From IMG/VR virus record IMGVR_UViG_3300025288_000013, positions 32,001 to 96,000 of that record: a DNA stretch of 64,000 nucleotides. The stretch is one strand, 5' to 3'. The stretch is from a virus. How positions within the stretch are numbered: the first letter of the stretch is position 1; every line of letters starts with the position of its first letter. The notes beneath the pieces are model-generated. The model was not told where the DNA came from. It ran no database searches and was given only the letters and a program-made list of their open reading frames with translations. Of this stretch, positions 16,365-63,357 are shown one piece after another. The position numbers and the translations under genes were made by a program.

Positions 16365-16966
16365 TAATTATTGTGGACGACAGAAAAGACATAAATTATA
16401 AAACGGTTGAACTATTTGATGATAGTTCAACCGTTTTTATAAATAAGAATGTTGTGTCCTCTGAATACCTATCATCTGATGAAATCCAAAAATACCAAGA
16501 CAACGAATTATTTGAAAGCATAGTAAAAACGTTTTACAAAATAAATCACAAAATAAATCCAAAATATAGAACTTGTATTGATTCTATTTTAACAGATGCT
16601 TATTTAGTTAACACACCAATTTCTTACGACAATTGTAACGACTATAAAATTTTGTACAGAAGAGATAATACGTGCATAATATCAAATGGAAAAAATGTCT
16701 TAGAGGTTAATATCAACAACATTAGTATAGAACATGGCAATATAGGTTCAGAAGTTATATCATATATTTTTTCAGAGATTTACAAAATTTTAAAAAACGA
16801 CATAAATGATTATACAAAATTTTTCATTTATTTTTCAGACATTTTTAACATAGAATACAAAGATTTGTATGACAATGTGTCATATAAACATAGAACAACC
16901 ATAGAATCAACCATAAAAAACAAATTCAAGTATTTGTTTTCAAACACAGATGCAGCAATGTGGTAA
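16361..16966 (+). CDS. hypothetical protein
   Basis: GTGA overlap with the upstream ORF. Confidence 0.6.
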   Translation: MIIIVDDRKDINYKTVELFDDSSTVFINKNVVSSEYLSSDEIQKYQDNELFESIVKTFYKINHKINPKYRTCIDSILTDAYLVNTPISYDNCNDYKILYRRDNTCIISNGKNVLEVNINNISIEHGNIGSEVISYIFSEIYKILKNDINDYTKFFIYFSDIFNIEYKDLYDNVSYKHRTTIESTIKNKFKYLFSNTDAAMW

Positions 16967-16986
16967 AGCTTGGCACGATTTTTGCT
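16966..16986 (+). promoter_or_regulatory. sigma54 (-24/-12) consensus promoter, copy 1
   Basis: AAGCT TGGCAC GATTT TTGCT upstream of the sigma-like gene at 17038. Confidence 0.8.
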
Positions 16987-17037
16987 GTGTTATAGTATGA
17001 ATTTAAAACTTAACTTAAACTTAACTTAAACTTAAAC

Positions 17038-18120
17038 ATGGAACAAGAAAAAATTTATGTGAACAATTTCACAAAACTATCACAAAATTATTTTGAATCA
17101 AGATCACAAAAAGATTTTGCCAAAATTTATGCAGAAATAAGAATAATAGCCATGTCTGCAGCTAAAGGGCTAACAGTAGATTCACATGATTACGAAAGTA
17201 TAGTTGACGATATTTCTATGAAGCTTTATTTGAACTTTGATAAATATTATCAAGAAAATAAAAGTCTTTTATCTTTTGTCTTTGTTTCATGTAAACGAAA
17301 GTATTATACACTCAAGAAGACATACAACAAAAGTATTTGTGAATCAGACATGATAATAATAAATGACAAAGACGGTGGAGAAACATCAAAATTTAATCAG
17401 GCTTTGACAAATTATTATGGCGATTTTGTTGACCAAGAAAATGTGGAGGTTGATGCAGCCGATAACATGTTGCATTTATCGACAGATAGACAGATAGACA
17501 GAGTTAAAGAAATTGTTAAAGAAATGTGCTATAACGATAAAGGTGAGTTTAATGAAGACGAACATACCAAAATGATAGATATTCTTACACTAAGAAACGG
17601 CGAGTTTTCTCTTGGTGAAAATTTGGAAGAGTTAATACCATATATAAAAAATGAAGAAGTTGGAAGCGTGTCAGACTTTATTAGTCCAACCATAATTTCT
17701 AATAAATATGGTATAAAGAACAGAGCAACTGTGTCGGCAAAAAGAACAAGAGCCATAGAAAAAATAAGAAACATAATTTTGTCTGATATATCAAATTCAG
17801 AGATTTTTGACAAAGTAAATTATACAGGGACAAAAATTGTTAAAAAAGACATAAATGGCAAAATATACACACACACATATGAACTCATAGATGGTGTTGC
17901 AAATGGGGAATACAAAAAAGAAATTTTGATTAATTCAAAGAAAACAACTCTAACAATAGGAAAATTTGAAAATGGTAAAAAAATAGGCATATGGCATCAT
18001 TTTTTTGTTGAAAACGGATCTTATATGGGATATGTAGATTATAATAGTGGTAAAAGTTTTGAATATACTGATATGGACGAAACAAGTATGGAAACACGTA
18101 TAATGAAATTGTCTGTGTAA
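17038..18120 (+). CDS. phage sigma70/ECF-like RNA polymerase sigma factor with C-terminal MORN-variant repeats
   Basis: Region-2-like DFAKIY...DYESIVDDISMKLYLNFDKY...LLSFVFVSCKRKY; region-4 HTH SPTIISNKYGIKNRATVSAKRTRAIEKIR; tail GKFENGKKIGIWHHF. Confidence 0.65.
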   Translation: MEQEKIYVNNFTKLSQNYFESRSQKDFAKIYAEIRIIAMSAAKGLTVDSHDYESIVDDISMKLYLNFDKYYQENKSLLSFVFVSCKRKYYTLKKTYNKSICESDMIIINDKDGGETSKFNQALTNYYGDFVDQENVEVDAADNMLHLSTDRQIDRVKEIVKEMCYNDKGEFNEDEHTKMIDILTLRNGEFSLGENLEELIPYIKNEEVGSVSDFISPTIISNKYGIKNRATVSAKRTRAIEKIRNIILSDISNSEIFDKVNYTGTKIVKKDINGKIYTHTYELIDGVANGEYKKEILINSKKTTLTIGKFENGKKIGIWHHFFVENGSYMGYVDYNSGKSFEYTDMDETSMETRIMKLSV

Positions 18121-18121
18121 T

Positions 18122-18769
18122 ATGAAGTATAACGAATTTTATGACGCTATTTTTTCTGTTGGTGAGAATCTTATTGTTAAGGCAGATTGCTCAAACAGTT
18201 GTTTTAAGCAATCTTCTGACTATGTTACCATAATAGATATTTTTATAGATAATGGTATCATATGTTTCCATGTTGAATGTGAGGGAGAAGTGTTGCAAGA
18301 TACTGATATGTGTCTGGAAACAAATGGCGTGTTTGATATAACAGCTGATGACATATTGAGTGTAGAAACCAACCAATATACAACAAAATACCTTAGCGAT
18401 CTTGTTGATAGCAACAATGTTATAAACATTGATTTGGTTGATATATCTGATATTACATTGACATCAATTATAGATATAAAAATGGATGTGGATATTGAGA
18501 TAAAGAACTTGTCTGAATTAATAAATAAAACCATAAACAACATAACATATTTGTCAAATAATTTGTTGTTTAATTTTACTGAAAAACAAATTATGATTTT
18601 GAACAAAAATGGAACCAATTATTATGGTTATGATGAATTGGTTGGCGTGCCAGAATCATGTGAACCATGTGACCACATGGTTTTATATAATAAACTTAAA
18701 CAACAAAAATCTTATTTAAGATCATTAAAAACAATAAAAACAATAATTAAAAACAACAAAAATGGATAA
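18122..18769 (+). CDS. hypothetical protein
   Basis: In an operon with the sigma-like gene. Confidence 0.6.
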   Translation: MKYNEFYDAIFSVGENLIVKADCSNSCFKQSSDYVTIIDIFIDNGIICFHVECEGEVLQDTDMCLETNGVFDITADDILSVETNQYTTKYLSDLVDSNNVINIDLVDISDITLTSIIDIKMDVDIEIKNLSELINKTINNITYLSNNLLFNFTEKQIMILNKNGTNYYGYDELVGVPESCEPCDHMVLYNKLKQQKSYLRSLKTIKTIIKNNKNG

Positions 18770-19253
18770 AGTTAAAAAAAGAGATTTAAGCAACATTAAA
18801 CAAAAATTAAACAAGGCAAACTCAATAGAGTGCACGAAATTAGCATTAGCTTTGATGGAAAACCACAAAATAATTGATAAAGAACTCAATAAGTTATCAC
18901 ATCAAGTAACTTCTAATAGTTTGACTGAAAAAACAGAAGGATATGAACAAATTGTTGAATTTGAAGAACAAATGAGAGGATCATATCCAACATTTTGCAA
19001 AGAGGTTCCAGGTGGTGGATTGCAACTTGTTGATAAAGATGGCTGGACAAAAAAACTTGAAGAGTTAAAAGAAAAATACCCTTTGGGTAGAAAATTTTTT
19101 GATGAGAATGAAATCAGAATAAATGGTATACTTGAAGAAGAAGTTGAACTTAATTTTAAAAAATTAAACATAAATTCTATACCAGATTTGAGTTTGGACA
19201 TGATTAATACAATAAGTTTCATGTTTAGTGTAAACCTTGTTAAATTAAGTTAA
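18762..19253 (+). CDS. hypothetical protein
   Basis: Operon packing. Confidence 0.6.
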   Translation: MDKVKKRDLSNIKQKLNKANSIECTKLALALMENHKIIDKELNKLSHQVTSNSLTEKTEGYEQIVEFEEQMRGSYPTFCKEVPGGGLQLVDKDGWTKKLEELKEKYPLGRKFFDENEIRINGILEEEVELNFKKLNINSIPDLSLDMINTISFMFSVNLVKLS

Positions 19254-19265
19254 TCGTATCATCAT

Positions 19266-19295
19266 AAAGGACATATAATAAAAATGTGTCCTTTT
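19266..19295 (+). terminator. intrinsic terminator
   Basis: AAAGGACATAT...ATGTGTCCTTTT hairpin. Confidence 0.65.
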
Positions 19296-19306
19296 ATCAC
19301 ACTAAT

Positions 19307-22235: not shown

Positions 22236-25200
22236 TTAATTTATATTTATATTTTTATTTAGTACTAAGCTTAATTTTGTCAATATGTTAACTGTGTCCC
22301 ACGTTTTGTCTTCTTCGTCCCACGTTTTATAATGAGTATACCAGTTATCATATACTGTGTCACCATTTATTAACGATAAGTTTTTGTTTGATATTATGTA
22401 TCCATCATTATATTTATTATTCGAACTTGGTTTTATGAACTTTATTTTTCCTATTTCAGAAGTATAATTAACATTTTCATCTGATATTATGTCTTTTATG
22501 TTAGAAAACGACAATATTGATTTCATTGATTCATAACATCTTGTAACATCAGATACCTGATACCAATCAAATTTTCTAAGGTCAATGAATCCTTTAACAT
22601 AACTGAATAGCATAACAGAATTTATAAGACTACCATTTAGTGCCAAAACAAAAATTTTATCATCAACAAATCTAATTGTGTTATTTGTTACATTAAATGG
22701 TAATGGGTTTGACGGATTCCATAATCCCAATCCATCAGCGTTAACGAATGTTGTTATTACTGATAAATCTTTATTATTTATACCAACCAAAGACCCAAAT
22801 TCACCATTTGATTGTTTTATCCAATTTGATACTTTCATTATATTACCATCGAATTCAATAGAATCTGGCGGTGTTGGCGAAACCGATAATTTGTTTTGCA
22901 ATTTAATACCTCTAAATTTGTCTGTTGGATTACTTAATGAATCTTGATAAACTAAATTTGGTATTGGTGGATATTCAAATTCGTCACCAAATAGAAAAGT
23001 TCCATTTGTGTATTTCTTTATGCCAAGCATAACATGTAAATATAAATAATCAAGTATTATCTCACCAGAATCAGTTATGGATTTCCAATCAGATATGCCT
23101 ATTTCTATAACAAGCACTATGGCTTTGTGATTATCGTTTTTTATGGTTTTTATTTCAAATGGTTTATTGCTGCCTTGATAGATTTCATGTATATCCCTTG
23201 TATTTAACACAACAGAAAATCTGTAACCATCCAATGACATATCAAAAGACAATTTAACGCCTCTGAATATTGTTTCGGATATATCAAAATCATTATTCAA
23301 TACTATGTTTGAATAATTTTTATCAAAATACTCCCTAAAATAGTCATATTTGGCACTTTTAAATAAACTTTCATCAAATATTCCCCCCATTAGATTTGAT
23401 ATGTGATACCAACTGTGTGTGTATAGTGATGTGTCTGATTCTTTTGTATCAAAATCTGGAGTTGTTATGCCATCCATATACATATTACCACCGTTTATGC
23501 TTATTGCGTTTCTTATGCACCAATTATATTCATTGTTAACTTGTTTGCCAAAATTTAACAAGGGTTTCACATTATCAACAAAAAATTGTACCTCATTATC
23601 ATCATTATAACTTTTTATCATAACTTTTGGGTTACCAGATATGATGGTAAAATTTTCATCTGTTGCCGCAAACGTATCAACCAACGTCACATTGTTTGAT
23701 ACACCATATTGAACGCCATCTGATTCAACAATAAATTCTGAAGAATCTCCTATTACTACATATGTTTCGCCAATTGTTAGTTTTGTCTGCTCTATATAAT
23801 TACTTAGATAATCTACAACATTTGATCTGTTTATTAGTATTTCTGATTCGATTTCTGATTCAGGATAAACAGATAACACACCATATTCAATTTTTTCTCT
23901 TTGGAATACTCTAATATCGTCCACAAAACCATTATAGTCACTTTCTGCACATGATATTATTTTGTTATTCATGTCAACTAATTCATCTAAGCCATTTGTG
24001 TTTTGGATATCAACGAATGTCAAGAATTTTGTTATTTTATGATATCCTATTTTACTTTTCATATAACCGCCCAAAACTTTATTTTTATTATCTATATCAA
24101 TGATAGATGTTATATAATTGTTGGTGAAACTTATGTCTGTATTATTAACAATTGTCAAGTCAACATTTGTTGATATGTTTTTTATGTCAAATGATAGGAA
24201 TTCGTTTGTTGATGATACTATTATTTTATTATCAATTGCTTTGGCTAATAAATTGTTGCTGTAGCCTACTTCGTTATTAAATGCTTTTGATATTGATATA
24301 CATTGTTCTGGTAACGTACCACTTGGATTAAACACAAATCTTTCTGCATCTGTTTTACCAAAATTTGGATTATTAAATAATTCATCAGCCAATAATATGA
24401 TGGACGTATTTTCAAAATCAAAACGTATAGTATCGCTTTGTGACGTTGATGAATTCAATTCTAGAACTATTAACCTGGTGTAATTTTCAAGTATTTCAAA
24501 ATCAATTGGTTCTTTTTCTTTGAATTTTGATAGCAATTGATCTGTTATGGTTATTTCGTTTTCTATTATTTTTGATGATGATGATATCTTGTTATCGCAT
24601 TTACAATAATTATATGGAACATCACTAAGTTCGTTTATTACTATACCATCAAAATCTTCTATTTCTATGTTCCCACTTACCAATGCATCATATATGGTTG
24701 GAACAAAATCCTTATTGTGTGTTTTTTTATAGAATTCACCAAGTTTTATATCATCCACAAATAACCAATAATCATCTTCTTCTAAATCATCTATGTAGAA
24801 TGCAAATTGGAAAATTGAATTCGGTATGATTTTGTTTTCCAAAAAAGTGTTGGTTATCGTATCATTTGTTATTAAATCAAACCCAGAAACTTTTGATACA
24901 ATAGATCCATTCAACAAATCAACTCCGTTAACAGTTATGGATTTGTTATCAAAATCTATGTTTATGGGATCATATTTTATATTAAGTTCTGATAGGTGAT
25001 TTGTTATATACTTACCTATTTTAGAGTTTATGGATAAGTCATATGTCTTTTTTATCGTATGATCATTTTTATTATCACTACCATTTTTTGACATAACAAC
25101 AAATCTACTTGGTAAAGATTCATTTACAACAAGAGTAACTATTATTCTGTTCTCAATAGTTTCAAAATCATCGCCAGAAAACAAAATTTTGTTCTCCACT

Positions 25201-25388
25201 TCACCAAATATCCTATGTAAATCTGATGAATATCTTCCGTCTGGATTAACAATCGCATCTTTAAATTGATGATCTGATAATGAACTCTCTGACAAAGCTG
25301 ATGAAAGTTTTATTGTATTATCGTCTACCATTAATAATATGTTTCCACATATTTTAGATATTTTTCTATTTAGATAAAATGTACCCAT
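22236..25388 (-). CDS. large virion structural protein (baseplate?)
   Basis: 1050 aa, in a late-type operon. Confidence 0.5.
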   Translation of the reverse strand: MGTFYLNRKISKICGNILLMVDDNTIKLSSALSESSLSDHQFKDAIVNPDGRYSSDLHRIFGEVENKILFSGDDFETIENRIIVTLVVNESLPSRFVVMSKNGSDNKNDHTIKKTYDLSINSKIGKYITNHLSELNIKYDPINIDFDNKSITVNGVDLLNGSIVSKVSGFDLITNDTITNTFLENKIIPNSIFQFAFYIDDLEEDDYWLFVDDIKLGEFYKKTHNKDFVPTIYDALVSGNIEIEDFDGIVINELSDVPYNYCKCDNKISSSSKIIENEITITDQLLSKFKEKEPIDFEILENYTRLIVLELNSSTSQSDTIRFDFENTSIILLADELFNNPNFGKTDAERFVFNPSGTLPEQCISISKAFNNEVGYSNNLLAKAIDNKIIVSSTNEFLSFDIKNISTNVDLTIVNNTDISFTNNYITSIIDIDNKNKVLGGYMKSKIGYHKITKFLTFVDIQNTNGLDELVDMNNKIISCAESDYNGFVDDIRVFQREKIEYGVLSVYPESEIESEILINRSNVVDYLSNYIEQTKLTIGETYVVIGDSSEFIVESDGVQYGVSNNVTLVDTFAATDENFTIISGNPKVMIKSYNDDNEVQFFVDNVKPLLNFGKQVNNEYNWCIRNAISINGGNMYMDGITTPDFDTKESDTSLYTHSWYHISNLMGGIFDESLFKSAKYDYFREYFDKNYSNIVLNNDFDISETIFRGVKLSFDMSLDGYRFSVVLNTRDIHEIYQGSNKPFEIKTIKNDNHKAIVLVIEIGISDWKSITDSGEIILDYLYLHVMLGIKKYTNGTFLFGDEFEYPPIPNLVYQDSLSNPTDKFRGIKLQNKLSVSPTPPDSIEFDGNIMKVSNWIKQSNGEFGSLVGINNKDLSVITTFVNADGLGLWNPSNPLPFNVTNNTIRFVDDKIFVLALNGSLINSVMLFSYVKGFIDLRKFDWYQVSDVTRCYESMKSILSFSNIKDIISDENVNYTSEIGKIKFIKPSSNNKYNDGYIISNKNLSLINGDTVYDNWYTHYKTWDEEDKTWDTVNILTKLSLVLNKNININ

Positions 25389-27406
25389 TAACCTATTATT
25401 ATAAATTCATAATTGGTTTTGTTTATGCAAACAACTTCAACAACATTTGATGTTGGTTTTATACTACCTATTTCAAGACCAAGAGAGGTATTTGTGAATT
25501 GTGAATTTATGTCAGTAAAGATTCTAACACTTTTACCATTTATATCTATATTCCTTGATAAAACTATTTTGAAAGATTGATTAATATCCCATTTCATATC
25601 GTCTTCTATGTAAACATTTATATCGTCTTGTGCAATAATTGGGTCTGAACTCAAATAACCAATTTTATTCCTCTTGCCAAGTTTAAAATTGTTTTTGTTG
25701 TTATATTTAACATCAGCCATTTTATTAGAAACGCCATTATAAAAACTGTTAGAAAGTGCAATAGACAATGTGCTTCCAAGTAATTTAGCATCAACTCCAT
25801 CCTTTCCTATTATTGATAGAATTATTTCGCTACTTATTTTTGTCTTATTTGTTAATATGTCAACTATCAACTTGCTATTTTTGTTAACAAGTTCTGATAT
25901 AGTATCAAATTCTGTGCTTGTTAATAATTTTGAATTTATTTGGTTTAATATAGTTTCTATGTTTGATTCTCGTGAAGCTATTATCATGTTCAATAATTCT
26001 TCATTTTTGTTTCTCAAATTAACATTCTCTGATATTATGTTTTCATAATTGTCTGTTATTTCAGCCATCCTTGAAACAGCTTCAGAGAATAATTGCATAG
26101 AAAACACATTATAATCGTTTATATCATGGAACACATCAACAGCCACATTCGCATTTGTTGTGTCTATTCTAAAATTCAACTTATATCCATATCCATTACC
26201 AGATTGATTTAATACGCTTGAATTTTTTATTTTTGGTTGTGTTCTTATTATAGATTGACCACCTGTAACTTCCACAACATCGTCTAAAAATAAAACTCCA
26301 TATAAATTTCTTTCAACAACTCCGTTTTCTTCAACTTCATAATACAATGCAACACAATTAAAATCAAATCCAAATGACGTATTTGATGAATTAAATTGGT
26401 TGAACGACTTTAAACTTTGATCGTTGAATGCAACATATGATGTTTTATCAAAGTCTATGCCAACACCATCAAGTCTATTTCTTATATAAGTTTTTTGCAA
26501 AGCACTTGTCGGGTGCGTAACGGTGATTTCATCATTTGATGGATCGGAAAATGTTTTATCAGTTAAATAAGCATCCGCCCCAGTATAATAATCAAACCAT
26601 AAATCTGTATCATTATTATCAACATCATTTACAGAAGAATAAACAAGTCCAACAACATCTATGTCATATTGTGCTAATAAATCAAGTCCATTGGCTGGTG
26701 GTGGTGATAATGAGTTATATCCCTCTATATACTCTCTGTCTGGCATACTGTTCCTCTGCATAATCATATTTTCGTTATAATTATTATCAGAAAGAGTATT
26801 AAACAAAACAACTGGGGTGTAACCAGCTTGTGACGGCACTAACATATAAATTTCTTCAAAGTTATTTTTGTTTGAAGTGTTTTTGTTTTGCATTTCAATT
26901 TCACCAACATATTGGATCAATCTTGAGTATAAATTGCCTGAACCAACATTAGAGTTATCATCCTCTTCTACATAATTTGGTGTTAGGTTATTGCTTTCTG
27001 AATTTGTTGCACTTCTATATCTAACAGCACCAATTTCTTTTAACCACTTAAAAAAAATACGCTCTGATGTGGTTTTTAAATTATTATTATTGTATTCTGG
27101 TTTTGAGGTCAAAATTTCTTCAAAGTTTAAAACATAGTTTTGTAATGATTCTGATAAATCTATGGAATCACCAAGTGATGGTGGTGTAACGACAGAGTTA
27201 CCAACAATAAATCTTGATTGTATTCTTTCAAAATCTGATACATTTTCATTGTTTGATGCTGTTTTTATTTCTGGTACGTTTAATAACACAAAATGTGAAA
27301 ATCTGAATTTCTTATCACTTCTATTAAATAATTCTATATCTTCTAAACCACTCTTAAATGTGATTAATGAATCTTTTTTTATCCTTGTTATTAATGAAGT
27401 CGACAT
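25388..27406 (-). CDS. virion structural protein (baseplate?)
   Basis: 672 aa; late box at 27438-27445. Confidence 0.5.
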   Translation of the reverse strand: MSTSLITRIKKDSLITFKSGLEDIELFNRSDKKFRFSHFVLLNVPEIKTASNNENVSDFERIQSRFIVGNSVVTPPSLGDSIDLSESLQNYVLNFEEILTSKPEYNNNNLKTTSERIFFKWLKEIGAVRYRSATNSESNNLTPNYVEEDDNSNVGSGNLYSRLIQYVGEIEMQNKNTSNKNNFEEIYMLVPSQAGYTPVVLFNTLSDNNYNENMIMQRNSMPDREYIEGYNSLSPPPANGLDLLAQYDIDVVGLVYSSVNDVDNNDTDLWFDYYTGADAYLTDKTFSDPSNDEITVTHPTSALQKTYIRNRLDGVGIDFDKTSYVAFNDQSLKSFNQFNSSNTSFGFDFNCVALYYEVEENGVVERNLYGVLFLDDVVEVTGGQSIIRTQPKIKNSSVLNQSGNGYGYKLNFRIDTTNANVAVDVFHDINDYNVFSMQLFSEAVSRMAEITDNYENIISENVNLRNKNEELLNMIIASRESNIETILNQINSKLLTSTEFDTISELVNKNSKLIVDILTNKTKISSEIILSIIGKDGVDAKLLGSTLSIALSNSFYNGVSNKMADVKYNNKNNFKLGKRNKIGYLSSDPIIAQDDINVYIEDDMKWDINQSFKIVLSRNIDINGKSVRIFTDINSQFTNTSLGLEIGSIKPTSNVVEVVCINKTNYEFIIIG

Positions 27407-27526: not shown

Positions 27527-28087
27527 ATGGCAAAAAAATTATATTCGTTTTCTGCATCAAAAACAAATCAAAATAAAGACATGCCGTTATTCTTAACGAA
27601 ATATGTCATAACATTTATCCTACCAGATGCATTAAAGGCTAAATATGGATCAGAAATTTTGTCAGAAGCCATAAACGAAATAGATGGTATGGAATTTGAT
27701 AAAATGCCAGAACCAGTTGAACAAAAATATAAAGGTATATCAAGAAGATTTGGTGGTTCTGTTGCTGATACAAATGTTGACTTAGCTATGGTATTTGCTG
27801 TTAATGTTGATAAAGAGGGTAGAATTTATCCGTTAAATGTGATACGTGATTGGTGTAGATTGATTTACAATAGTGATGGAATCGTTTTAACCAAAGAAGA
27901 ATATGCTGGTGCTGCGGTTATAGAAGTTCACAATGTTAAAGGTGAAATTTTAAGAAAGGTAAAAATTCCTATATTTTTCCCAATGACTAACATTGCTGCG
28001 ATGAAACTTGATTATCACAATGATGAAATTTTCGAATTACCAATGACATGGGTTGCGGAAAATGCCGCAGACACATACATAGATTAA
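27527..28087 (+). CDS. tail tube protein, T4 gp19-like
   Basis: QKYKGISRRFGG, RDW, KEEYAG, FFPMTNIAAMKLDY...FELPMTW; late box at 27489-27496; strong terminator. Confidence 0.7.
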   Translation: MAKKLYSFSASKTNQNKDMPLFLTKYVITFILPDALKAKYGSEILSEAINEIDGMEFDKMPEPVEQKYKGISRRFGGSVADTNVDLAMVFAVNVDKEGRIYPLNVIRDWCRLIYNSDGIVLTKEEYAGAAVIEVHNVKGEILRKVKIPIFFPMTNIAAMKLDYHNDEIFELPMTWVAENAADTYID

Positions 28088-51388: not shown

Positions 51389-51399
51389 GATTACTGTTT

Positions 51400-51744: not shown

Positions 51745-51875
51745 ATTTCAAACTGTTTGTTGAATATTTTTGTTGCACCAGTTCCAACAACGAAACCAAT
51801 TATTGTGTTTTCATCAAGTTCAGAACAATTTCTCAACACAAACTCATTTCCTTGTAAATCTCTAAATTTTCTCAT
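51741..51875 (-). CDS. small hypothetical protein (44 aa, not in ORF track)
   Basis: MRKFRDLQGNEF...; ATGA overlap with 51744; directly downstream of a sigma54-type promoter. Confidence 0.55.
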   Translation of the reverse strand: MRKFRDLQGNEFVLRNCSELDENTIIGFVVGTGATKIFNKQFEI

Positions 51876-51908
51876 TTTATATAATTTAATTGGTTTATGT
51901 TATATACA

Positions 51909-51930
51909 TTGCAAAAATCGTGCCAAGCTT
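51909..51930 (-). promoter_or_regulatory. sigma54 (-24/-12) consensus promoter, copy 2
   Basis: AAGCT TGGCAC GATTT TTGCA. Confidence 0.8.
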
Positions 51931-52109
51931 TATTTTGAATTTAAATCTGATAATTCAGACCAAAATAGATACAATATGATACCTAAAGCAATTGTTCGTT
52001 GGATACTTTCAATAATAAAATTTGATAATCCAATAAAAACACCTATTCTAAAAATATATACCAATGGTTTAGTGATTTTATTCATGGTTCCAATTGTTTG
52101 TTGTATTTT

Positions 52110-52187
52110 GTAGGAAAGATAGGACTTGAACCTATCACCTCTTACCAACTTTCATCAATAAGCGTACTGCCCTTATATTATTTCCTA
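52110..52187 (-). ncRNA. tRNA-like element with a non-canonical anticodon arm
   Basis: Acceptor TAGGAAA/TTTCCTA; T-arm (G)ATAGG-TTCAAGT-CCTAT(C); D-loop GG; CTTATTGAT-GAAA-GTTGGTAAG at the anticodon position. Confidence 0.6.
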
Positions 52188-52192
52188 TGTAA

Positions 52193-52223
52193 AATGAAAC
52201 CAACTACAATAGTTGGTTTCATT
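52193..52223 (-). terminator. intrinsic terminator hairpin
   Basis: AATGAAACCAACTA-caa-TAGTTGGTTTCATT perfect inverted repeat after gene 52227-52505. Confidence 0.8.
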
Positions 52224-52226
52224 GTT

Positions 52227-52505
52227 TTAACGAATTTCTTCGATTCTTTTCAAAAGATTCTCTTTGGTGTTCTTGTTACTTTTGTAAGCAATTTGAATCT
52301 TTTTGTCATCTTTGGCGATTCTTATGAAGTTTTGACCAAAAGTCACATCATATTTTTTACGCCCCATGAATAAGTCAACTTTGTTTTCTTCTTCATTTTT
52401 GATTCTTATGTTAATCCCAAAACCCTCTAAAACTGTTGTTAAGCTTTCAGTGGTTTTATCAAAATTAACTGTTTCTTTTACTGTTACTGTTTCTGTTTTT
52501 GTCAT
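52227..52505 (-). CDS. hypothetical protein, paralogue of the N-terminus of 63358-63993
   Basis: TFGQNFI...KIQIAYKSNKNT versus NFGATFI...KIQISYKSKKNT. Confidence 0.7.
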   Translation of the reverse strand: MTKTETVTVKETVNFDKTTESLTTVLEGFGINIRIKNEEENKVDLFMGRKKYDVTFGQNFIRIAKDDKKIQIAYKSNKNTKENLLKRIEEIR

Positions 52506-52566
52506 TGGTTTATGCTTATTTCTAAGACTTTATTGGTTTATGATTAAAATTTTTATATAATATACA

Positions 52567-52588
52567 TTGCAAAAATCGTGCCAAGCTT
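52567..52588 (-). promoter_or_regulatory. sigma54 (-24/-12) consensus promoter, copy 3
   Basis: AAGCT TGGCAC GATTT TTGCA. Confidence 0.8.
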
Positions 52589-52779
52589 TATATAAGACGA
52601 ATATCTTCTATTAGTACGTATTGGTGGTGTGTTTCGTACTCATATCTTACTCTAACTGTGTCATTTATTTTAGACCCATAATCGATGTGAGCAATAGTGT
52701 GACCGTTTATGTGGACAATTTCACCACCATTTGATACATGTGATTTGATATCTTTTAGTGTTCTTACTGACTGTGCCAT
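52588..52779 (-). CDS. small hypothetical protein
   Basis: Lies between two sigma54-type promoters. Confidence 0.65.
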   Translation of the reverse strand: MAQSVRTLKDIKSHVSNGGEIVHINGHTIAHIDYGSKINDTVRVRYEYETHHQYVLIEDIRLI

Positions 52780-52811
52780 TTTATTTAAGTTTTAAGTTTA
52801 TATAATATACA

Positions 52812-52833
52812 TTGCAAAAATCGTGCCAAGCTT
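52812..52833 (-). promoter_or_regulatory. sigma54 (-24/-12) consensus promoter, copy 4
   Basis: AAGCT TGGCAC GATTT TTGCA. Confidence 0.8.
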
Positions 52834-52856
52834 TATATAAAACATAAATACTGCCC

Positions 52857-53030
52857 TTAAATGTCTATGTCATTCAATATTTCCTCATAAGAATCCTTAA
52901 ACAAATTATCAATTGTTGATAGGTCTTTCATGGTTTCAATGATTTCTCTAAGTCTTACCCCTGAAGTCTTTGGGTTATCAAACTCACTTCTAAGTGAATC
53001 AATGATACTTTTTATAGTTGTCTTTTTCAT
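52857..53030 (-). CDS. small hypothetical protein (57 aa, not in ORF track)
   Basis: MKKTTIKSIIDSLRSEF...; ATGA overlap with the stop at 53027. Confidence 0.55.
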   Translation of the reverse strand: MKKTTIKSIIDSLRSEFDNPKTSGVRLREIIETMKDLSTIDNLFKDSYEEILNDIDI

Positions 53031-53254
53031 ACCAATCTTTCCTCCATATGTTCTTTTAGACGTTCATTAAGTGTCATTAATAAATTGTTTGATAATTCAC
53101 AAACACCGAACATACTTTCGAAGTTTCTTATCATTCTGTTTGATACCAATAAATGCATGTAATCATTTTTCTTATTGTTTATGATGCTTAGTATTCTTTG
53201 GAAATGATCGTTTTTTGTTTTATTGATGTTTCTTGTTGGTATTGCTGATAACAT
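53027..53254 (-). CDS. hypothetical protein
   Basis: ORF downstream of an ECF-type promoter. Confidence 0.6.
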   Translation of the reverse strand: MLSAIPTRNINKTKNDHFQRILSIINNKKNDYMHLLVSNRMIRNFESMFGVCELSNNLLMTLNERLKEHMEERLV

Positions 53255-53291
53255 AACTTTAAGTTTTTGTTAATAAAAATTTTATATGTAA

Positions 53292-53319
53292 TAAACTGCC
53301 ATATATTTAGGTTGTTACA
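53292..53319 (-). promoter_or_regulatory. ECF-type promoter
   Basis: TGTAACAA cctaaatatatggca GTTTAT. Confidence 0.75.
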
Positions 53320-53323
53320 GAAA

Positions 53324-53554
53324 TTAGAAATTTATCTTGTGACCAAGTTTTTTGTATTTCTCTACAACCGATTTTAAATCGTTTGCAAATGTTAGCACAT
53401 CAACATACATATAACCTATAATAACATTTTCATTGTTTTTCAGATGCATAACAGGTATATTCGTGTTTGAATAATTACCAAATTCAAGCACAATATCGCT
53501 TTTCTGCGTTAAAGCACCAACATTTATTATTTTTTCTATTGGTTGGCTACCCAT
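53324..53554 (-). CDS. hypothetical protein
   Basis: Operon packing. Confidence 0.6.
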   Translation of the reverse strand: MGSQPIEKIINVGALTQKSDIVLEFGNYSNTNIPVMHLKNNENVIIGYMYVDVLTFANDLKSVVEKYKKLGHKINF

Positions 53555-53783
53555 TTGAATTTTTATTACGTTTTATATGATAACAACCAAGTAAAATACC
53601 TGATATTGCTAAAACCCATATATGAGTGTTTATAGACACTTTGACTTTTACACATTGTGGATTATATGGGTTTTGCTCACACCAACATGGTGAAAAGGGT
53701 AAACAATTTGGATTTGGTGGTTGGCAAAACAAATCGTTGGGCAAAACGAATAAAAACAATGATATAACTAATAAATGTTTCAT
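53547..53783 (-). CDS. small secreted Cys/Pro-rich peptide with a PID-CTERM-like sorting tail
   Basis: Signal peptide, Cys/Pro-rich core, SINTHIWVLAISGILLGCYHIKRNK tail. Confidence 0.55.
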   Translation of the reverse strand: MKHLLVISLFLFVLPNDLFCQPPNPNCLPFSPCWCEQNPYNPQCVKVKVSINTHIWVLAISGILLGCYHIKRNKNSNG

Positions 53784-54094
53784 ACGTCTGGTATTTCTAC
53801 TGTTTGCCCTTTAAACTCGTGTTTACAATCGCTCAAATACTCTATCATACCATTTTTTACAAATGAATGACAAATTGTTTCATTTATATTGCTCCCAGAT
53901 CTTTGTCTTTTTATGTGTATTGATGGTGTGAATGTTGGTTTGTCCACATCACCATTAAACGACCAAATATGGGGTTTTCCATCAACTATAATTGGTTTTG
54001 TTGTCCAAACTCCATGATGGCATCTGCATCCGATGCAATAAAATATCCAATCTGGACTATTCTCTGACGGTTCTTGTGTGAATACTTTAGCCAT
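53780..54094 (-). CDS. DUF6527-like Zn-binding protein
   Basis: FYCIGCRCHH...WSFNGDVDKPTFTPSI...CHSFV...YLSDCKH. Confidence 0.65.
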   Translation of the reverse strand: MAKVFTQEPSENSPDWIFYCIGCRCHHGVWTTKPIIVDGKPHIWSFNGDVDKPTFTPSIHIKRQRSGSNINETICHSFVKNGMIEYLSDCKHEFKGQTVEIPDV

Positions 54095-54095
54095 A

Positions 54096-54347
54096 TTAAA
54101 AGGGTAATAGTTGAGTTGATTTTATATTCAGTGCCTTACAAATAAGATAAAGATTTTTCATTGATAATTGTTGTCTTCCACTTTCTATATTAACAATTGA
54201 AACCCTTGTTAAACCGATATTATTAGCCAATTGTTCTTGTGTTAATTTTTTATCTTTTCTTAGTTGTTCAATTTGTATAGCAATATATTTATTGTAACTC
54301 ACCTCTTGTTCTATTACTACTTTTCTTTTAATTGTGAACTTTTCCAT
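54096..54347 (-). CDS. XRE-family HTH transcriptional regulator
   Basis: LRKDKKLTQEQLANNIGLTRVSIVNIESGRQ. Confidence 0.9.
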   Translation of the reverse strand: MEKFTIKRKVVIEQEVSYNKYIAIQIEQLRKDKKLTQEQLANNIGLTRVSIVNIESGRQQLSMKNLYLICKALNIKSTQLLPF

Positions 54348-54361
54348 AATTTAAAATTCTT

Positions 54362-54715
54362 TCATATTAATTCTTTTAAAATATAATCAAATGCTACTGA
54401 ATAAGCTTCTTGTGGAGTTTTATTACCATTAAATGATTGTTTCTTATTATTTGTTTGAATAAATGAAGAAAATAATTTACCATCCATATTATGATATAAT
54501 TCTACTCCTATCCAAATACCATAATTAATTCGTAGCCATTCAATTACTTGCCATTGTTCTGGTGCTGAACATATTATATCTACACTATTAAAATTTGTTT
54601 CTATTTCTGTTATAAACCTATAACTATTACTTGAATAATATAATTTACATTTTACATCAAATCCTTTACCTTTAAGGAGTTTAGCTTGTTCAAATGTTAC
54701 AAAAATTCTTTCCAT
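54362..54715 (-). CDS. hypothetical protein, paralogue family B
   Basis: VTFEQAKLLKGKGF...SAPEQWQVIEWLR. Confidence 0.7.
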   Translation of the reverse strand: MERIFVTFEQAKLLKGKGFDVKCKLYYSSNSYRFITEIETNFNSVDIICSAPEQWQVIEWLRINYGIWIGVELYHNMDGKLFSSFIQTNNKKQSFNGNKTPQEAYSVAFDYILKELI

Positions 54716-54749
54716 TTCGTTTAAGTTTTATTTATTTCACAAAATTTCA

Positions 54750-54771
54750 TTGCAAAAATCGTGCCAAGCTT
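54750..54771 (-). promoter_or_regulatory. sigma54 (-24/-12) consensus promoter, copy 5
   Basis: AAGCT TGGCAC GATTT TTGCA upstream of 54715. Confidence 0.8.
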
Positions 54772-54995
54772 TAAATTGATTTTCCATCAATAAGTATTTG
54801 TCTTAAGTTTTGTACCGCTTCCATAACCTTTGTGTTGTGTTCACCAAGTTGTTTGTATTTGGTTTGTTTATTACCTTTTGATGGGTGGCAATAATCCAAT
54901 TGACTTTGTGCTACTTCTTTTGCTGCATTTATATCACCATCTGTTAAATCTAAAATTGAATTACAAGCATTATTCACTTTTGTTACTGAATCCAT
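54771..54995 (-). CDS. hypothetical protein
   Basis: ORF. Confidence 0.6.
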   Translation of the reverse strand: MDSVTKVNNACNSILDLTDGDINAAKEVAQSQLDYCHPSKGNKQTKYKQLGEHNTKVMEAVQNLRQILIDGKSI

Positions 54996-55338
54996 AATTT
55001 TTATTTTTTTTATTTTGCTCTATAACATTTATATCAAGATAATAATCAGCATATATGTGGATTGTGTAGACAACCCTGTTATTTGGTCTTAATGTCCTTT
55101 CAGTCACAAAACACATTTTATCGGGTTCTGTTAAACAGTTTTCTAATGAACATATCATTTCTTTGACTGGTTTGGCATCTTCAGTCCAAGCCATAGCCAT
55201 TATATCCATATCAGCATTTAAACTACCATGAAGCCCTAAAGCCCACCCACAATCTAATGCAGCTTGTCTAAGATCACCATAAATTGAAGCATAAAATGCT
55301 GCTCTACCATTTGTAACAATTGATTTTCTATCTTTCAT
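54970..55338 (-). CDS. hypothetical protein with a nucleotidyltransferase-like GS..D.D motif
   Basis: LHGSLNADMDIMA. Confidence 0.45.
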   Translation of the reverse strand: MKDRKSIVTNGRAAFYASIYGDLRQAALDCGWALGLHGSLNADMDIMAMAWTEDAKPVKEMICSLENCLTEPDKMCFVTERTLRPNNRVVYTIHIYADYYLDINVIEQNKKNKNYGFSNKSE

Positions 55339-57476: not shown

Positions 57477-57932
57477 TTAAATACCAAGACAACATTTTTT
57501 GAATTTTTTGCCAGAACCACAAATACATGTTTCATTTCTACCAACCTTTTTTTCGGTTCTTATTGATTCAATTGTTTGTAATAATTGTTTGTTTGTCAAG
57601 GGCGGATAGTGTTCAAGATGTTGATTCTCAAATTTGTACTCAATTATTTCTTTTTCCCATTCATTGATACTTTTTGTCTTTGGAGCAATATCATCTTTTG
57701 TTACCAATTTATCAGATAAAACGAAACCCTTTTCCTCAAGAAGTTTCTTTACTTCATCAGTCACATCACTTTGTAACAAGAATAATTCTTTACCGTTTGT
57801 GTCAACGTATACCCTTATATCTTGTTCAATTGTTGCCGCATTTAAAGTAGTCTTTCCATGACTAACTGTACCAATGTTTTTGTGTGCAATTTCTCGTGAA
57901 TCACCAACGATTGCAATAGTTTTCTTACTCAT
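57477..57932 (-). CDS. SEC-C motif protein (start probably MSKK)
   Basis: C-terminal KVGRNETCICGSGKKFKKCC. Confidence 0.8.
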   Translation of the reverse strand: MSKKTIAIVGDSREIAHKNIGTVSHGKTTLNAATIEQDIRVYVDTNGKELFLLQSDVTDEVKKLLEEKGFVLSDKLVTKDDIAPKTKSINEWEKEIIEYKFENQHLEHYPPLTNKQLLQTIESIRTEKKVGRNETCICGSGKKFKKCCLGI

Positions 57933-58044
57933 AATATGTGTTAAATATAAATTGTAAAGCGTAATATAAAATATGATATGCACAGAAAACGCCAAAAATA
58001 AGTGCCAAAAGTATTACATATTTCATTTTTAATTTCATTTTTAA

Positions 58045-61787: not shown

Positions 61788-61794
61788 GATTTAT

Positions 61795-62106: not shown

Positions 62107-62134
62107 GTTTTAATAAATGTAGTTTAATCTTTTA

Positions 62135-62298
62135 ATTTTATTGAAACGAACAAAAATTGGGCAATTTTGTTCGTTTCAATTGGCTGTCGCACTATTTTAG
62201 TTCTATAAGCACATGATACGCTATGTTTATACTAAATTTCAAGTTTGCTACAAGTAAATTATCTTTGTATCAAGACAAAATACCAACTATCAATTCGT
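62135..62298 (-). ncRNA. candidate structured ncRNA (about 160 nt)
   Basis: ECF-type promoter upstream, hairpin downstream, no ORF, nested complementary segments. Confidence 0.4.
62140..62180 (-). terminator. strong hairpin / probable terminator
   Basis: ATTGAAACGAACAAAA...TTTTGTTCGTTTCAAT inverted repeat. Confidence 0.7.
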
Positions 62299-62304
62299 GT
62301 ATTA

Positions 62305-62332
62305 TAAACTATCCATATCTATTGTTGTTACA
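62305..62332 (-). promoter_or_regulatory. ECF-type promoter
   Basis: TGTAACAA caatagatatggata GTTTAT. Confidence 0.7.
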
Positions 62333-62485
62333 GCATATCTAACATATAAGGTAATAATTTGATTATAAAAATAGCACAATCAAAACAAGGGTCAAATTGT
62401 TTTGAAAATAATAAAACACCAAAATCAAATTTGTGATTGCTTTTGAAATAATGCCATGATGTATGTGAGTTATTTTTTTTATTTT

Positions 62486-62523
62486 TATGTCGCCTATTTT
62501 ATAGGGTTGCATTTGTGACAGTT
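62486..62523. repeat. 38-bp repeat core, copy 3
   Basis: Identical to 3708-3745 and 6491-6528. Confidence 0.95.
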
Positions 62524-62567
62524 CTATATGATTAGAAAGATTCTGCCTTTCTTGAGTGTTTTTTACT

Positions 62568-62595
62568 AAAACCAACAATATTTGATTTTGTTACA
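62568..62595 (-). promoter_or_regulatory. ECF-type promoter
   Basis: TGTAACAA aatcaaatattgttg GTTTTA. Confidence 0.65.
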
Positions 62596-62963
62596 ATACC
62601 ATTTTACCAAATCTTCAGTTTTGTATGAATTTTTGAATATAAAACTGAAGATATAAGAACAATATTTAAAGTTATTATATTAAATTATTGTCAGTTTTAT
62701 AAGCATGATACAACATTGTAACACATTTATAACAAATCTTTGAGTTTTGTTTAAGATTATTGAATTGCATTTTACTGTATCAATACACATTTATAATTAA
62801 GCACAATATATGTCCCTTTTATTGATTTTGTGTTATAGACACTAACATAGCAGAAATATGGTATTAAAATAATGGTAATATAGAGGAGTTTGTGGGAGAT
62901 ATGTCTGACTAATTTGAGTATGGGTGTATACAGATATGTTTAAGAACATATTGTTAATACAAT

Positions 62964-63311
62964 CTATTTATTATTTTGGTGAAACTTTGATATAACCGAT
63001 ATATTATCTTTTCCATAAAGTTCTTCCATAAAACATTTAACATTATCATTTTTACACTGATCAGCAACATATTCAACAAACAATCTGAAATCGTTCTTTG
63101 CTAATGCCAATCCAGCTGATAGACCGACTATATCTATGTGTTTTGAAATGGATGTTATGGCTTCAATAACCTTTATGTTTTTAACAACCTCATCAATTTG
63201 TGATATAGTCATTAATTGTCTTTGTGAATTTGGAAATTCTCTAAGCGATTTGTCATATAATTTCATTTTTTCTAACTCCAATTCTTCAAGATTTTTTGAT
63301 ATGTGTGCCAT
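62964..63311 (-). CDS. hypothetical protein
   Basis: Directly downstream of sigma54-type promoter copy 6. Confidence 0.65.
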   Translation of the reverse strand: MAHISKNLEELELEKMKLYDKSLREFPNSQRQLMTISQIDEVVKNIKVIEAITSISKHIDIVGLSAGLALAKNDFRLFVEYVADQCKNDNVKCFMEELYGKDNISVISKFHQNNK

Positions 63312-63336
63312 TTTTATTAAGTTTATATAAATACAC

Positions 63337-63357
63337 TTGCAAAAATCGTGCCAAGTT
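63337..63357 (-). promoter_or_regulatory. sigma54 (-24/-12) consensus promoter, copy 6
   Basis: AACT TGGCAC GATTT TTGCA. Confidence 0.8.

What the first reader, a model, noticed from the sequence alone, without database searches (positions are those of the whole stretch)
16966..63357. Phage genes driven by repeated consensus sigma54 (RpoN, -24/-12) promoters
Seen: TTGGCACGATTTTTGC(A/T) occurs six times (16966-16986 on +; 51909-51930, 52567-52588, 52812-52833, 54750-54771 and 63337-63357 on -). Each copy is intergenic, most sit immediately after the upstream stop codon, and all point at a start codon about 28-65 nt away. Established: this equals the sigma54 consensus YTGGCACG-N4-TTGCW with the obligatory GG-N10-GC spacing, and sigma54 holoenzyme normally needs an AAA+ enhancer-binding protein (bEBP) to open DNA. 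Inference: this phage runs its early programme on sigma54 rather than the housekeeping sigma. I do not know of this being described for a lytic phage. It would need a hijacked host bEBP, a phage-encoded or virion-delivered activator, or a phage RpoN homologue, and none of these is visible in this window. The phage HU could supply the DNA bend.
Basis: partly seen in the sequence, partly recalled or inferred. Interest (0 to 1): 0.92.

Follow-up and report, generated by a model that had tools for sequence, protein, structure and literature searches.

The report
Sigma-54 promoter cassettes in a phage
An uncultured T4-like groundwater phage, probably of Bacteroidia, puts identical perfect copies of the bacterial sigma-54 promoter in front of small accessory genes, its DNA ligase and its own sigma-factor gene, so part of its programme probably runs on a host route that published phage work has hardly described.

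Summary
TGGCACGATTTTTGC occurs 6 times exactly in the window and 9 times in the 110-kb contig (chance about 0.2). Every copy is intergenic and points at a start codon 27-63 nt downstream. It matches the sigma-54 consensus TGGCACG-N4-TTGCW exactly.

Evidence for the sigma-54 reading:
- A phage sharing only 25 proteins at about 33% identity has six copies of the same box.
- In an unrelated phage with about 26 copies, only the spacer and two tolerated core positions vary.
- Neither contig uses Shine-Dalgarno sites or the Bacteroidetes sigma-A -7 box. The nearest cultured relative infects Flavobacterium, where TSS-mapped sigma-54 promoters drive chaperone genes (PMC9723704).
- One copy, before a gene I show to be an ECF-type sigma factor, has a TGACA-N3-TGTCA site at -101. 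This is the half-site type found upstream of Bacteroidia groES sigma-54 promoters.

No RpoN or canonical enhancer-binding protein is encoded, but the contig is about 64% complete. No transcription start data exist, and "early" is inferred.

Phage sigma-54 promoters have a thin precedent (Pseudomonas phage YuA). This scan has already noted the pattern in at least 112 other genomes. Verdict: real, probably host-sigma-54 promoters; a new variant of a known kind.

The parts
16964..16986 (+). Sigma-54-type promoter cassette (TAAAGCTTGGCACGATTTTTGCT). GG is at 16972-16973 and GC at 16984-16985. Predicted +1 is near 16997. It heads the sigma-factor-like gene.
16870..16882 (.). TGACAATGTGTCA palindrome (two TGWCA half-sites 8 nt apart), 101 nt upstream of the box and inside the 3' end of the preceding gene. 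Candidate enhancer (UAS) of the Bacteroidia groES type.
   Evidence: Only 3 such paired sites occur in 110 kb (0.4 expected) and this is the only one near a box. The same 13-mer recurs in the phage G020 arrays. The half-site type lies upstream of groES in Bacteroidia.
17038..18120 (+). 360-aa protein: ECF-type sigma region 2 at the N-terminus, a probable region-4-like helix-turn-helix, and C-terminal MORN repeats. It is the likely reader of the TGTAAC-N17-GTT promoter class.
   Evidence: A profile of 5 homologues hits true ECF sigma factors. All 8 short hits tested carry Sigma70_r2 plus r4. JGI names one homologue 'sigma24 family'. MORN_2 is found in relatives.
51911..51925 (-). Sigma-54-type box. 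Predicted +1 near 51899. Heads a 44-aa ORF (51741-51875) and the genes behind it.
52569..52583 (-). Sigma-54-type box. Predicted +1 near 52557. Heads a 92-aa ORF (52227-52505).
52814..52828 (-). Sigma-54-type box. Predicted +1 near 52802. Heads a 63-aa ORF (52588-52779).
54752..54766 (-). Sigma-54-type box with a diverged downstream flank. Predicted +1 near 54740. Heads a 117-aa ORF (54362-54715, phrog_12005, function unknown).
63339..63353 (-). Sigma-54-type box. Predicted +1 near 63327. Heads a 115-aa ORF (62964-63311). This copy is conserved in the close relative L014.
10222..10527 (+). Phage HU/IHF-family DNA-bending protein (101 aa). It sits behind a promoter of the second class, not behind a sigma-54 box.
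   Evidence: PF00216, 79.7 bits; promoter class

Best explanation
The nine identical cassettes are promoters read by the host's sigma-54 (RpoN) RNA polymerase holoenzyme. The phage is a T4-like myovirus of a Shine-Dalgarno-less host, most likely Bacteroidia. It encodes no RNA polymerase that I could find, no RpoN and no canonical enhancer-binding protein.

Each box is the optimal sigma-54 site (TGGCACG-N4-TTGCA with a T-run before the GC). It should therefore hold the holoenzyme in a very stable closed complex, with transcription starting about 12 nt downstream of the GC.

Opening must come from a host AAA+ activator. In Flavobacteria, sigma-54 drives groESL, dnaK, grpE, lon, clpB and htpG, so holoenzyme and an at least partly active activator should be present in any growing cell. 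For the copy before the phage sigma gene, the activator is probably recruited by the TGACA-N3-TGTCA site at -101. For the other eight copies it would act from solution, or from sites I did not recognise.

That sigma gene encodes an ECF-type factor. It probably reads the second promoter class (TGTAAC-N17-GTT), which heads the replication genes and other genes. The order would then be host sigma-54, then phage ECF sigma, then later genes.

Shown: the sites, their positions, the match to consensus, the sharing between distant phages, the sigma homology, and the absence of sigma-A boxes. Inferred: that sigma-54 binds the sites, the timing, which activator acts, and the cascade.
For: 1. Exact match to the sigma-54 consensus, 9 copies against about 0.2 expected, all intergenic and co-oriented with the next gene.
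2. Phage G001 shares only 25 proteins with this phage, at a median 33% identity. It still has six co-oriented copies of TGGCACG(A/G)TTTTTGC. Its one variant copy changes only non-critical positions: the T before TGG, one spacer base and the W after TTGC.
3. The unrelated phage G020 has about 26 co-oriented copies in 19 kb. TGGCA and TTG never vary, the spacer varies, and the only core changes are C to T in TGGCA(C) and in TTG(C). This is the tolerance pattern of sigma-54 sites. The one decayed copy in this contig (TGGCATGATTTTTGT, just outside the window) carries exactly these two changes.
4. Host type. TerL is closest to Flavobacterium phage MaF61, then to the Prevotella Lak phages. Shine-Dalgarno use equals background at 2%. 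The Bacteroidetes sigma-A -7 box is not enriched before genes: 4 seen against 4.7 expected.
5. In F. psychrophilum, TSS-mapped -24/-12 promoters (motif SM4) drive groES/EL, lon, dnaK, grpE-dnaJ, htpG and clpB, and the genome has three activators (PMC9723704). The Bacteroidales genomes I tested carry Sigma54_DBD.
6. Upstream of groES in a sample of 30 Bacteroidia genomes, many carry a TGTCA-N3-TGTCA-N7-9-TGACA site, in the rows printed about 65 nt upstream of a TGGCAY-N6-TG site. G001 and G020 carry arrays of the same half-site 20-110 nt upstream of their boxes (enrichment p = 1.5e-23 and 1.8e-9). This contig has one such pair at -101 of the copy before the sigma gene.
7. Activators lacking DNA binding can activate from solution (PMC3844500).
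8. The gene behind that copy is homologous to ECF sigma factors. The second promoter class has ECF-type -35/-10 geometry.
Against: - There is no transcription start or expression data. No RNA run is available for this phage.
- The host is unknown, so the presence of rpoN and of an activator in it is assumed.
- All nine copies are identical. Within this genome nothing shows which bases matter; that argument rests on other phages.
- Eight of nine copies lack any recognisable enhancer, and k-mer enrichment upstream of them is not significant.
- The contig is about 64% complete. An activator gene, a phage factor for this site, or sigma-A-type early promoters could lie in the missing part.
- The closest cultured relative, MaF61, has no such sites, so the trait is not general in the wider group.
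Confidence: 0.68

Rival explanations
1. The 22-nt block is the site of a phage-encoded factor (a sigma, activator or repressor) and only resembles the sigma-54 consensus. Host sigma-54 plays no part.
For: All nine copies are identical over 22 nt, more than sigma-54 alone needs, as is usual for phage-specific promoters. The contig is incomplete and most of its proteins have no family match.
Against: The same 15-mer is used in promoter position by G001 at 33% protein identity. The TGGCAC-N5-TTGC frame is also used by unrelated phages G020, G023 and G029 with variable spacers. A shared, conserved host factor explains this better. The only sigma-like gene found fits the other promoter class, which is of ECF type.
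Confidence: 0.12
2. The boxes are docking sites that hold host sigma-54 holoenzyme without productive transcription. They would act as a sponge for the host stress regulon, or as roadblocks or insulators placed right after stop codons.
For: No activator and almost no enhancer is seen. Perfect-consensus sites with a T-run form very stable closed complexes (established knowledge). The sites abut the upstream stop codon. Other follow-ups in this scan raised the same idea for other phages.
Against: All nine copies point at the next gene, with leaders of 15-52 nt. Several head genes that have no other promoter candidate. One has a host-type upstream site at an enhancer-like distance.
Confidence: 0.1
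3. It is a housekeeping-sigma promoter: TTGGCA as -35 and TATTAT 16 nt downstream as -10.
For: The consensus scan scores two copies at 10 of 12 and a third at 9 of 12.
Against: The -10-like hexamer is missing in the copies at 16971 and 54766, whose downstream flank differs. The G001 variant copy reads ATGGCA. Sigma-70-like matches are not enriched in the region (23 found, 24.6 expected). A host without Shine-Dalgarno use points to Bacteroidia, whose sigma-A reads TTTG/TAnnTTTG rather than -35/-10 (PMC9723704), and that box is absent here.
Confidence: 0.04

Closest known systems
Sigma-54 (motif SM4) promoters of Flavobacterium psychrophilum, mapped by 5'-end RNA-seq and tested by mutagenesis (PMC9723704)
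   Same: Same -24/-12 architecture, in the bacterial group that most likely holds the host. The same upstream TGTCA/TGACA half-sites occur before groES in the Bacteroidia I sampled.
   Different: Host groES sites have a weak -12 element (TGA, TGT or TGC). The phage copies are perfect TTGC with a T-run. Eight of nine phage copies lack the upstream site. They are on a virus and head genes that are not stress genes.
Sigma-54-like promoter of Pseudomonas phage YuA (promoter trap, Ceyssens 2008, as cited in PMC10914365; ONT-cappable-seq promoter P015)
   Same: A phage promoter attributed to host sigma-54.
   Different: YuA has a single such promoter beside sigma-70 and phage-specific ones, in a Pseudomonas siphovirus. 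Here it is a repeated cassette of 9 or more copies in a T4-like phage that shows no housekeeping-type promoters.
High-affinity sigma-54 promoters such as Sinorhizobium meliloti nifH (TGGCACGACTTTTGCA), and the Klebsiella nifH -15 to -17 T mutants that allow activation without an upstream site (Buck and Cannon 1989). Recalled from memory, not checked here.
   Same: The phage box differs from the S. meliloti nifH core by one spacer base and has the same T-run before the GC. This is the feature said to give stable closed complexes and activation from solution.
   Different: Those are bacterial nitrogen-fixation promoters with dedicated NifA sites. The relevance to the phage is by analogy only.
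Repeated early-promoter cassettes (PeSL) that flank small ORFs in the plastic regions of T4-type phages (Arbiol et al. 2010). Recalled from memory.
   Same: Identical promoter cassettes sit between small, fast-evolving ORFs of a T4-like genome, so they could also serve as recombination points.
   Different: PeSLs are sigma-70 promoters with a stem-loop. No stem-loop or terminator is found here, and the promoter type is sigma-54.

Membership tests
Sigma-54 (RpoN) -24/-12 promoters | GG and GC dinucleotides exactly 10 bp apart within TGGCACG-N4-TTGCW | tested here: met
   All 9 copies match every specified base.
Sigma-54 (RpoN) -24/-12 promoters | Promoter position: intergenic, co-oriented, a short leader to the start codon | tested here: met
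   9 of 9 are intergenic and co-oriented. Box end to ATG is 27-63 nt.
Sigma-54 (RpoN) -24/-12 promoters | Across diverged copies, TGGCA and TTG stay fixed while the spacer varies | tested here: inconclusive
   Copies within this genome are identical. The one decayed copy has C to T at the two tolerated positions. The pattern is met in G001 and clearly in the unrelated G020.
Sigma-54 (RpoN) -24/-12 promoters | Transcription starts about 12 nt downstream of the GC and depends on rpoN | not testable with these tools
   No RNA run is listed for this DNA, and the phage and host are uncultured.
Sigma-54 (RpoN) -24/-12 promoters | An AAA+ enhancer-binding activator and an upstream enhancer | tested here: inconclusive
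   No PF00158 domain or GAFTGA loop in the contig. One copy has a groES-type palindrome at -101 and the other eight have none. G001 and G020 have strong upstream arrays.
Sigma-54 (RpoN) -24/-12 promoters | The host encodes RpoN | not testable with these tools
   The host is unknown. All three genomes tested, two of them titled Bacteroidales, carry Sigma54_DBD. F. psychrophilum has one sigma-54 (PMC9723704).
Bacteroidetes sigma-A promoters (-33 TTTG / -7 TAnnTTTG) | TAnnTTTG box upstream of genes | tested here: not met
   4 boxes in intergenic upstream DNA against 4.7 expected, and none inside the cassette in a usable position.
Sigma-70 -35/-10 promoters | Both hexamers present in every copy | tested here: not met
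   Detected in 3 of the 4 copies in the stretch scanned. The copies at 16971 and 54766 have a different flank and lack the hexamer. No enrichment over shuffles.
ECF (group 4) sigma factors, for the 360-aa gene product | Sigma-70 region 2 and region 4 homology | tested here: met
   Region 2 is met: the family profile hits 8 of 8 tested ECF sigmas at E 3e-6 to 1e-4 over 1.8 billion proteins. Region 4 is not detected by Pfam and only a helix-turn-helix-like stretch is seen, so membership is as a divergent relative.
T4-type PeSL promoter cassettes | Early promoter joined to a stem-loop | tested here: not met
   No terminator-like stem-loop in 51300-55200.

The most novel reading that the evidence does not exclude
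A lytic T4-like phage of Bacteroidia has given up housekeeping-sigma promoters and enters the host programme through sigma-54. It uses maximal-affinity, mostly enhancer-less -24/-12 cassettes that can be fired by whichever host chaperone-regulon activator is active. One of these promoters switches on a phage ECF-type sigma that takes over the middle genes. Together with the similar arrays in G001, G020, G023 and G029, this would make sigma-54 a main entry point for transcription in a whole set of Bacteroidota phages, and would tie phage gene expression to the host's protein-stress state.
Probability: 0.4. Interest if true: 0.8.

Novelty: new variant of a known kind. Interest (0 to 1): 0.62.

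Why it matters
Textbook phage transcription starts on the host's housekeeping sigma or on a phage polymerase. A phage class that starts on sigma-54 would depend on an ATP-driven host activator, so infection would be coupled to host stress signalling. In Flavobacteria the sigma-54 regulon is the chaperone and protein-quality-control regulon. This would explain how phages of Bacteroidia, whose sigma-A promoters are unusual, organise gene expression. It gives compact, very strong sigma-54 promoter parts for Bacteroidota genetics. It also predicts that rpoN or activator mutations change phage susceptibility. The idea can be tested with the existing Flavobacterium reporter system. Because this scan has met the pattern in many phage genomes, its value lies in the general phenomenon. 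This locus adds a clean case with a sigma-54-to-ECF-sigma link.

Tried and rejected
- Megablast of two large window segments against cultured phages: no match.
- tblastn of the 360-aa protein against cultured phages: no match.
- Sequencing runs: no RNA holder listed.
- AlphaFold2 model of the 360-aa protein: mean pLDDT 55, not usable, so no fold search was run. A profile against PDB sequences gave only E = 0.37 to a sigma factor.
- Weak PF00158 hits in other phages turned out to be an AAA_21/SMC-like ATPase (G001), ClpB (G024), a generic AAA (G020) and AAA_5 (G029). None is an enhancer-binding protein.
- Searches for more relatives through TerL and the sigma-like protein gave only G001, one 11-kb contig and distant hits. 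The 204-kb metagenome record behind L266 is not held for searching.
- The genome sample 'phylum of G031' proved to have Shine-Dalgarno sites and CIRCE elements. It is not Bacteroidia-like. I do not use it for host inference, and the zero-hit pattern search on it is uninformative.
- k-mer enrichment upstream of the nine copies in this contig: nothing significant after correction.
- A T4-late-like TATAAAT box before structural genes: 4 seen against 2.3 expected, not established.
- Rfam: no family in the window. tRNA: none.
- The 17-mer and 19-mer scans of viral and bacterial collections give numbers near or a few-fold above chance, spread over many phyla. This fits a universal optimum site and gives no host clue.


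Full report
**1. The observation**

The 15-mer TGGCACGATTTTTGC occurs six times exactly in the window: 16971-16985 on the + strand, and 51911, 52569, 52814, 54752 and 63339 on the - strand. Shuffles give a mean of 0.18 matches even with two mismatches allowed.

The window is bases 32001-96000 of a 110,222-base IMG/VR virus contig. The contig has 30% G+C and is estimated 64% complete. It holds nine exact copies.

- All nine copies lie in the 5.5% of the contig that is not coding.
- All nine point at the next gene.
- Each ends 27-63 nt before an ATG.
- The invariant block is AAA(G/A)CTTGGCACGATTTTTGC, and its TAA is the stop codon of the preceding gene.
- A further downstream block is shared by seven copies but not by those at 16971 and 54766.

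The only part common to all copies is therefore the box itself.

**2. The phage and its likely host**

The large terminase is closest to Flavobacterium phage MaF61 (40% identity), then to the Prevotella Lak megaphages, and then to T4-like phages. The following also have PHROG matches:

- portal protein
- baseplate wedge
- gp32-like SSB
- family-B DNA polymerase
- SbcC-like nuclease
- NAD-dependent ligase

No phage RNA polymerase was seen among the large proteins that could be named.

Shine-Dalgarno motifs before genes are at background level, 2%. This is the signature of Bacteroidia. The DNA is held by groundwater and aquifer assemblies, and no RNA run is listed.

**3. Is it a sigma-54 site?**

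The box equals TGGCACG-N4-TTGCW at every specified base. Because the nine copies are identical, the contig itself cannot show which bases matter. Other phages can.

*Phage G001.* This 126.6-kb contig shares only 25 proteins with the present phage, at a median 33% identity. It has six co-oriented intergenic copies of TGGCACG(A/G)TTTTTGC. Its one variant copy changes the base before TGG, one spacer base and the base after TTGC. None of these is critical for sigma-54.

*Other large viral contigs.* A scan of contigs that hold the 15-mer found strand-coherent arrays of TGGCAC-N5-TTGC:

| Contig | Copies |
|---|---|
| G020 | 15 in its first 19 kb |
| G023 | 10 |
| G029 | 9 |

*Phage G020 with relaxed matching.* Allowing two mismatches raises G020 to about 26 co-oriented sites. 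TGGCA and TTG never change and the five spacer bases vary. The only core changes are C to T in TGGCA(C) and C to T in TTG(C). This is the tolerance profile of sigma-54 promoters.

*The decayed copy in this contig.* It lies just outside the window, upstream of the gene ending at contig 96468. It reads TGGCATGATTTTTGT and carries exactly those two changes.

*Bacterial genomes.* The 19-mer also occurs in genomes of many phyla, about four times more often than chance. This fits a universal optimum site.

**4. The rivals**

*Sigma-70 reading (TTGGCA-N16-TATTAT).* It fits only the copies with the shared downstream block. It fails for 16971 and 54766. Such matches are not enriched in the region.

*Bacteroidetes sigma-A -7 box (TAnnTTTG).* It is not enriched before genes: 4 against 4.7 expected here, and 7 against 5.2 in G001. 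The only host-type promoter signal in either contig is therefore the sigma-54 box.

*RNA element or terminator.* No Rfam family and no terminator-like hairpin overlaps the cassettes.

*A phage-specific factor.* It remains possible because the contig is incomplete. It would have to be conserved between phages that share almost nothing else.

**5. The activator problem**

The contig has no match to the sigma-54 activator domain (PF00158), to the RpoN DNA-binding domain (PF04552), or to GAFTGA-type or activator-type Walker A motifs in six frames. The same holds for G001, G020, G023, G029 and G030. The weak hits there are an SMC-like ATPase, ClpB, a generic AAA and AAA_5. These phages must therefore use a host activator, an unrecognised one, or none.

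Two published results matter here.

- In Flavobacterium psychrophilum, 5'-end mapping defined a -24/-12 motif (SM4). It drives groES-groEL, lon, dnaK, grpE-dnaJ, htpG and clpB. The genome has one sigma-54 and three PF00158 proteins (PMC9723704).
- Activator domains without DNA binding still activate sigma-54 promoters from solution, at lower efficiency (PMC3844500).

I then sampled groES upstream regions in 30 genomes of the class that holds a Paludibacteraceae genome. These have no Shine-Dalgarno sites, so they are Bacteroidia-like. Many carry TGTCA-N3-TGTCA-N7-9-TGACA, in the rows printed about 65 nt upstream of a TGGCAY-N6-TG site.

The same half-site, in the same 8-nt phase, forms arrays 20-110 nt upstream of the boxes in other phages.

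- G001: TGACA enrichment p = 1.5e-23, and 4 of the 5 dense clusters in the genome abut a box.
- G020: 25 palindromes in 20 kb against 0.3 expected.

In the present contig there are only three paired sites (0.4 expected). One, TGACAATGTGTCA at window 16870-16882, lies 101 nt upstream of the box at 16971. The other eight copies have nothing comparable.

My reading is that the copy before the sigma gene is enhancer-dependent through the host chaperone-regulon activator. The rest would rely on very stable closed complexes and on activation from solution. That the palindrome binds an activator rather than a repressor is itself an inference.

**6. What the boxes drive**

| Location | Gene behind the box |
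|---|---|
| Window | 360-aa protein (17038-18120) |
| Window | ORFs of 44, 92, 63, 117 and 115 aa, no known family |
| Outside the window | 67-aa ORF |
| Outside the window | 232-aa ORF |
| Outside the window | NAD-dependent DNA ligase (618 aa, phrog_3869) |

The 360-aa protein belongs to a family of about 50 proteins. A profile of five members hits true ECF sigma factors through its residues 16-137. All eight short hits tested carry Sigma70_r2 plus r4. Relatives carry C-terminal MORN repeats. The structure model was too poor to use.

The contig also has 25 matches to TGTAAC-N17-GTT, about 20 of them TGTAACAA-N15-GTT(T/A) sites placed just upstream of, and co-oriented with, a gene. This is the geometry of ECF promoters. 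These sites lie before the polymerase, the SSB, the HU gene, the operon that contains the PurA-like gene, and others.

A cascade from host sigma-54 to phage ECF sigma to these genes fits the layout, but it is untested. It sits behind the ECF-type class.

**7. Comparison with what is known**

Full-text searches found one thin precedent. Pseudomonas phage YuA has one sigma-54-like promoter, from a promoter trap and ONT-cappable-seq (PMC10914365). A putative sigma-54-like protein is also reported in a Pectobacterium phage (PMC7693777). I found no paper describing repeated sigma-54 cassettes as a phage promoter class.

Within this scan the pattern is not new. 122 notes in at least 112 genomes mention it, and several follow-ups reached the same reading, including the link to Bacteroidota chaperone promoters. 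I checked that link myself. It holds strongly for G001 and G020, but for only one of the nine copies here.

**8. Verdict**

The feature is real and far beyond chance. It is most likely a set of host-sigma-54-dependent promoters (0.68). The claims that it is the early class, that a host chaperone-regulon activator fires it, and that it starts a cascade through a phage ECF sigma are inferences, ranked in that order of decreasing support.

It is a new variant of a known kind: a known promoter type in an almost undescribed viral role. Interest is moderate to high. It is tempered by the lack of any expression data, by the incomplete genome, and by the many parallel cases already recorded in this scan.

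Noticed in passing
window 3682(-), 6557(+), 8741(+), 10147(+), 10583(+), 15774(+), 29334(-), 34093(-), 48161(-), 53319(-), 58072(-), 60207(-), 62332(-), 62595(-); more outside the window: A second and larger promoter-like class, TGTAACAA-N15-GTT(T/A)T. The contig has 25 matches to TGTAAC-N17-GTT, and about 20 lie just upstream of and co-oriented with a gene. The geometry is of ECF type (TGTAAC -35, GTT -10). The sites head the polymerase, SSB, HU and the PurA-like operon. G001 lacks this motif (1 chance hit) although it has a 25%-identical sigma-like protein.
   Followed up: partly
window 17005-17037 (+): The leader between the sigma-54 box and the start of the sigma-like gene is a run of AACTTA/AACTTAA repeats. 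No other copy has this leader.
   Followed up: no
contig about 96520-96540 (-), i.e. window coordinate about 64520-64540, just outside the window: A decayed tenth copy, TGGCATGATTTTTGT, before a 111-aa gene. It has C to T changes at the two core positions that also vary in phage G020.
   Followed up: partly
loci L198 (G020:1-20000), L199 (G029), L200 (G023): Unrelated large viral contigs carry 9-26 co-oriented sigma-54-type boxes, each before a small ORF without a Shine-Dalgarno site. In G020 they come with dense TGACA-N3-TGTCA arrays. In G023 each box is followed by a G+C-rich hairpin-like block (GAGCGGCCCAAAGCGGCCGCTC).
   Followed up: partly
loci L016, L115, L129, L131, L133, L089 (other viral contigs): In several unrelated viral contigs the same 15-mer is followed within a few bases by its near reverse complement (...TTTTTGC NNNN CAAAAATCGTGCCAA). 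This gives head-to-head pairs rather than single promoters.
   Followed up: no
window 29335-32529 (-): A 1064-aa protein with a NUDIX hydrolase domain at residues 808-909. The rest has no family match, and one PHROG hit is to a portal-annotated family over the same stretch.
   Followed up: no
window 12636-13919 (+): A 427-aa gene just upstream of the terminase. Its counterpart in Flavobacterium phage MaF61 is annotated as adenylosuccinate synthetase, and it is 42% identical to a G001 protein. Other first-stage notes call it PurZ; I did not test that.
   Followed up: no
window 57477-57995 (-): A 172-aa protein ending in a SEC-C zinc-binding motif (PF02810), in the small-gene arm.
   Followed up: no
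contig 24723-26285 (-), window 27527-28087 (+), window 44099-45742 (+): TATAAAT(A) boxes 20-26 nt before the baseplate wedge gene, a 186-aa gene and the probable capsid gene resemble T4 late promoters. The count (4 against 2.3 expected) is not significant.
   Followed up: partly
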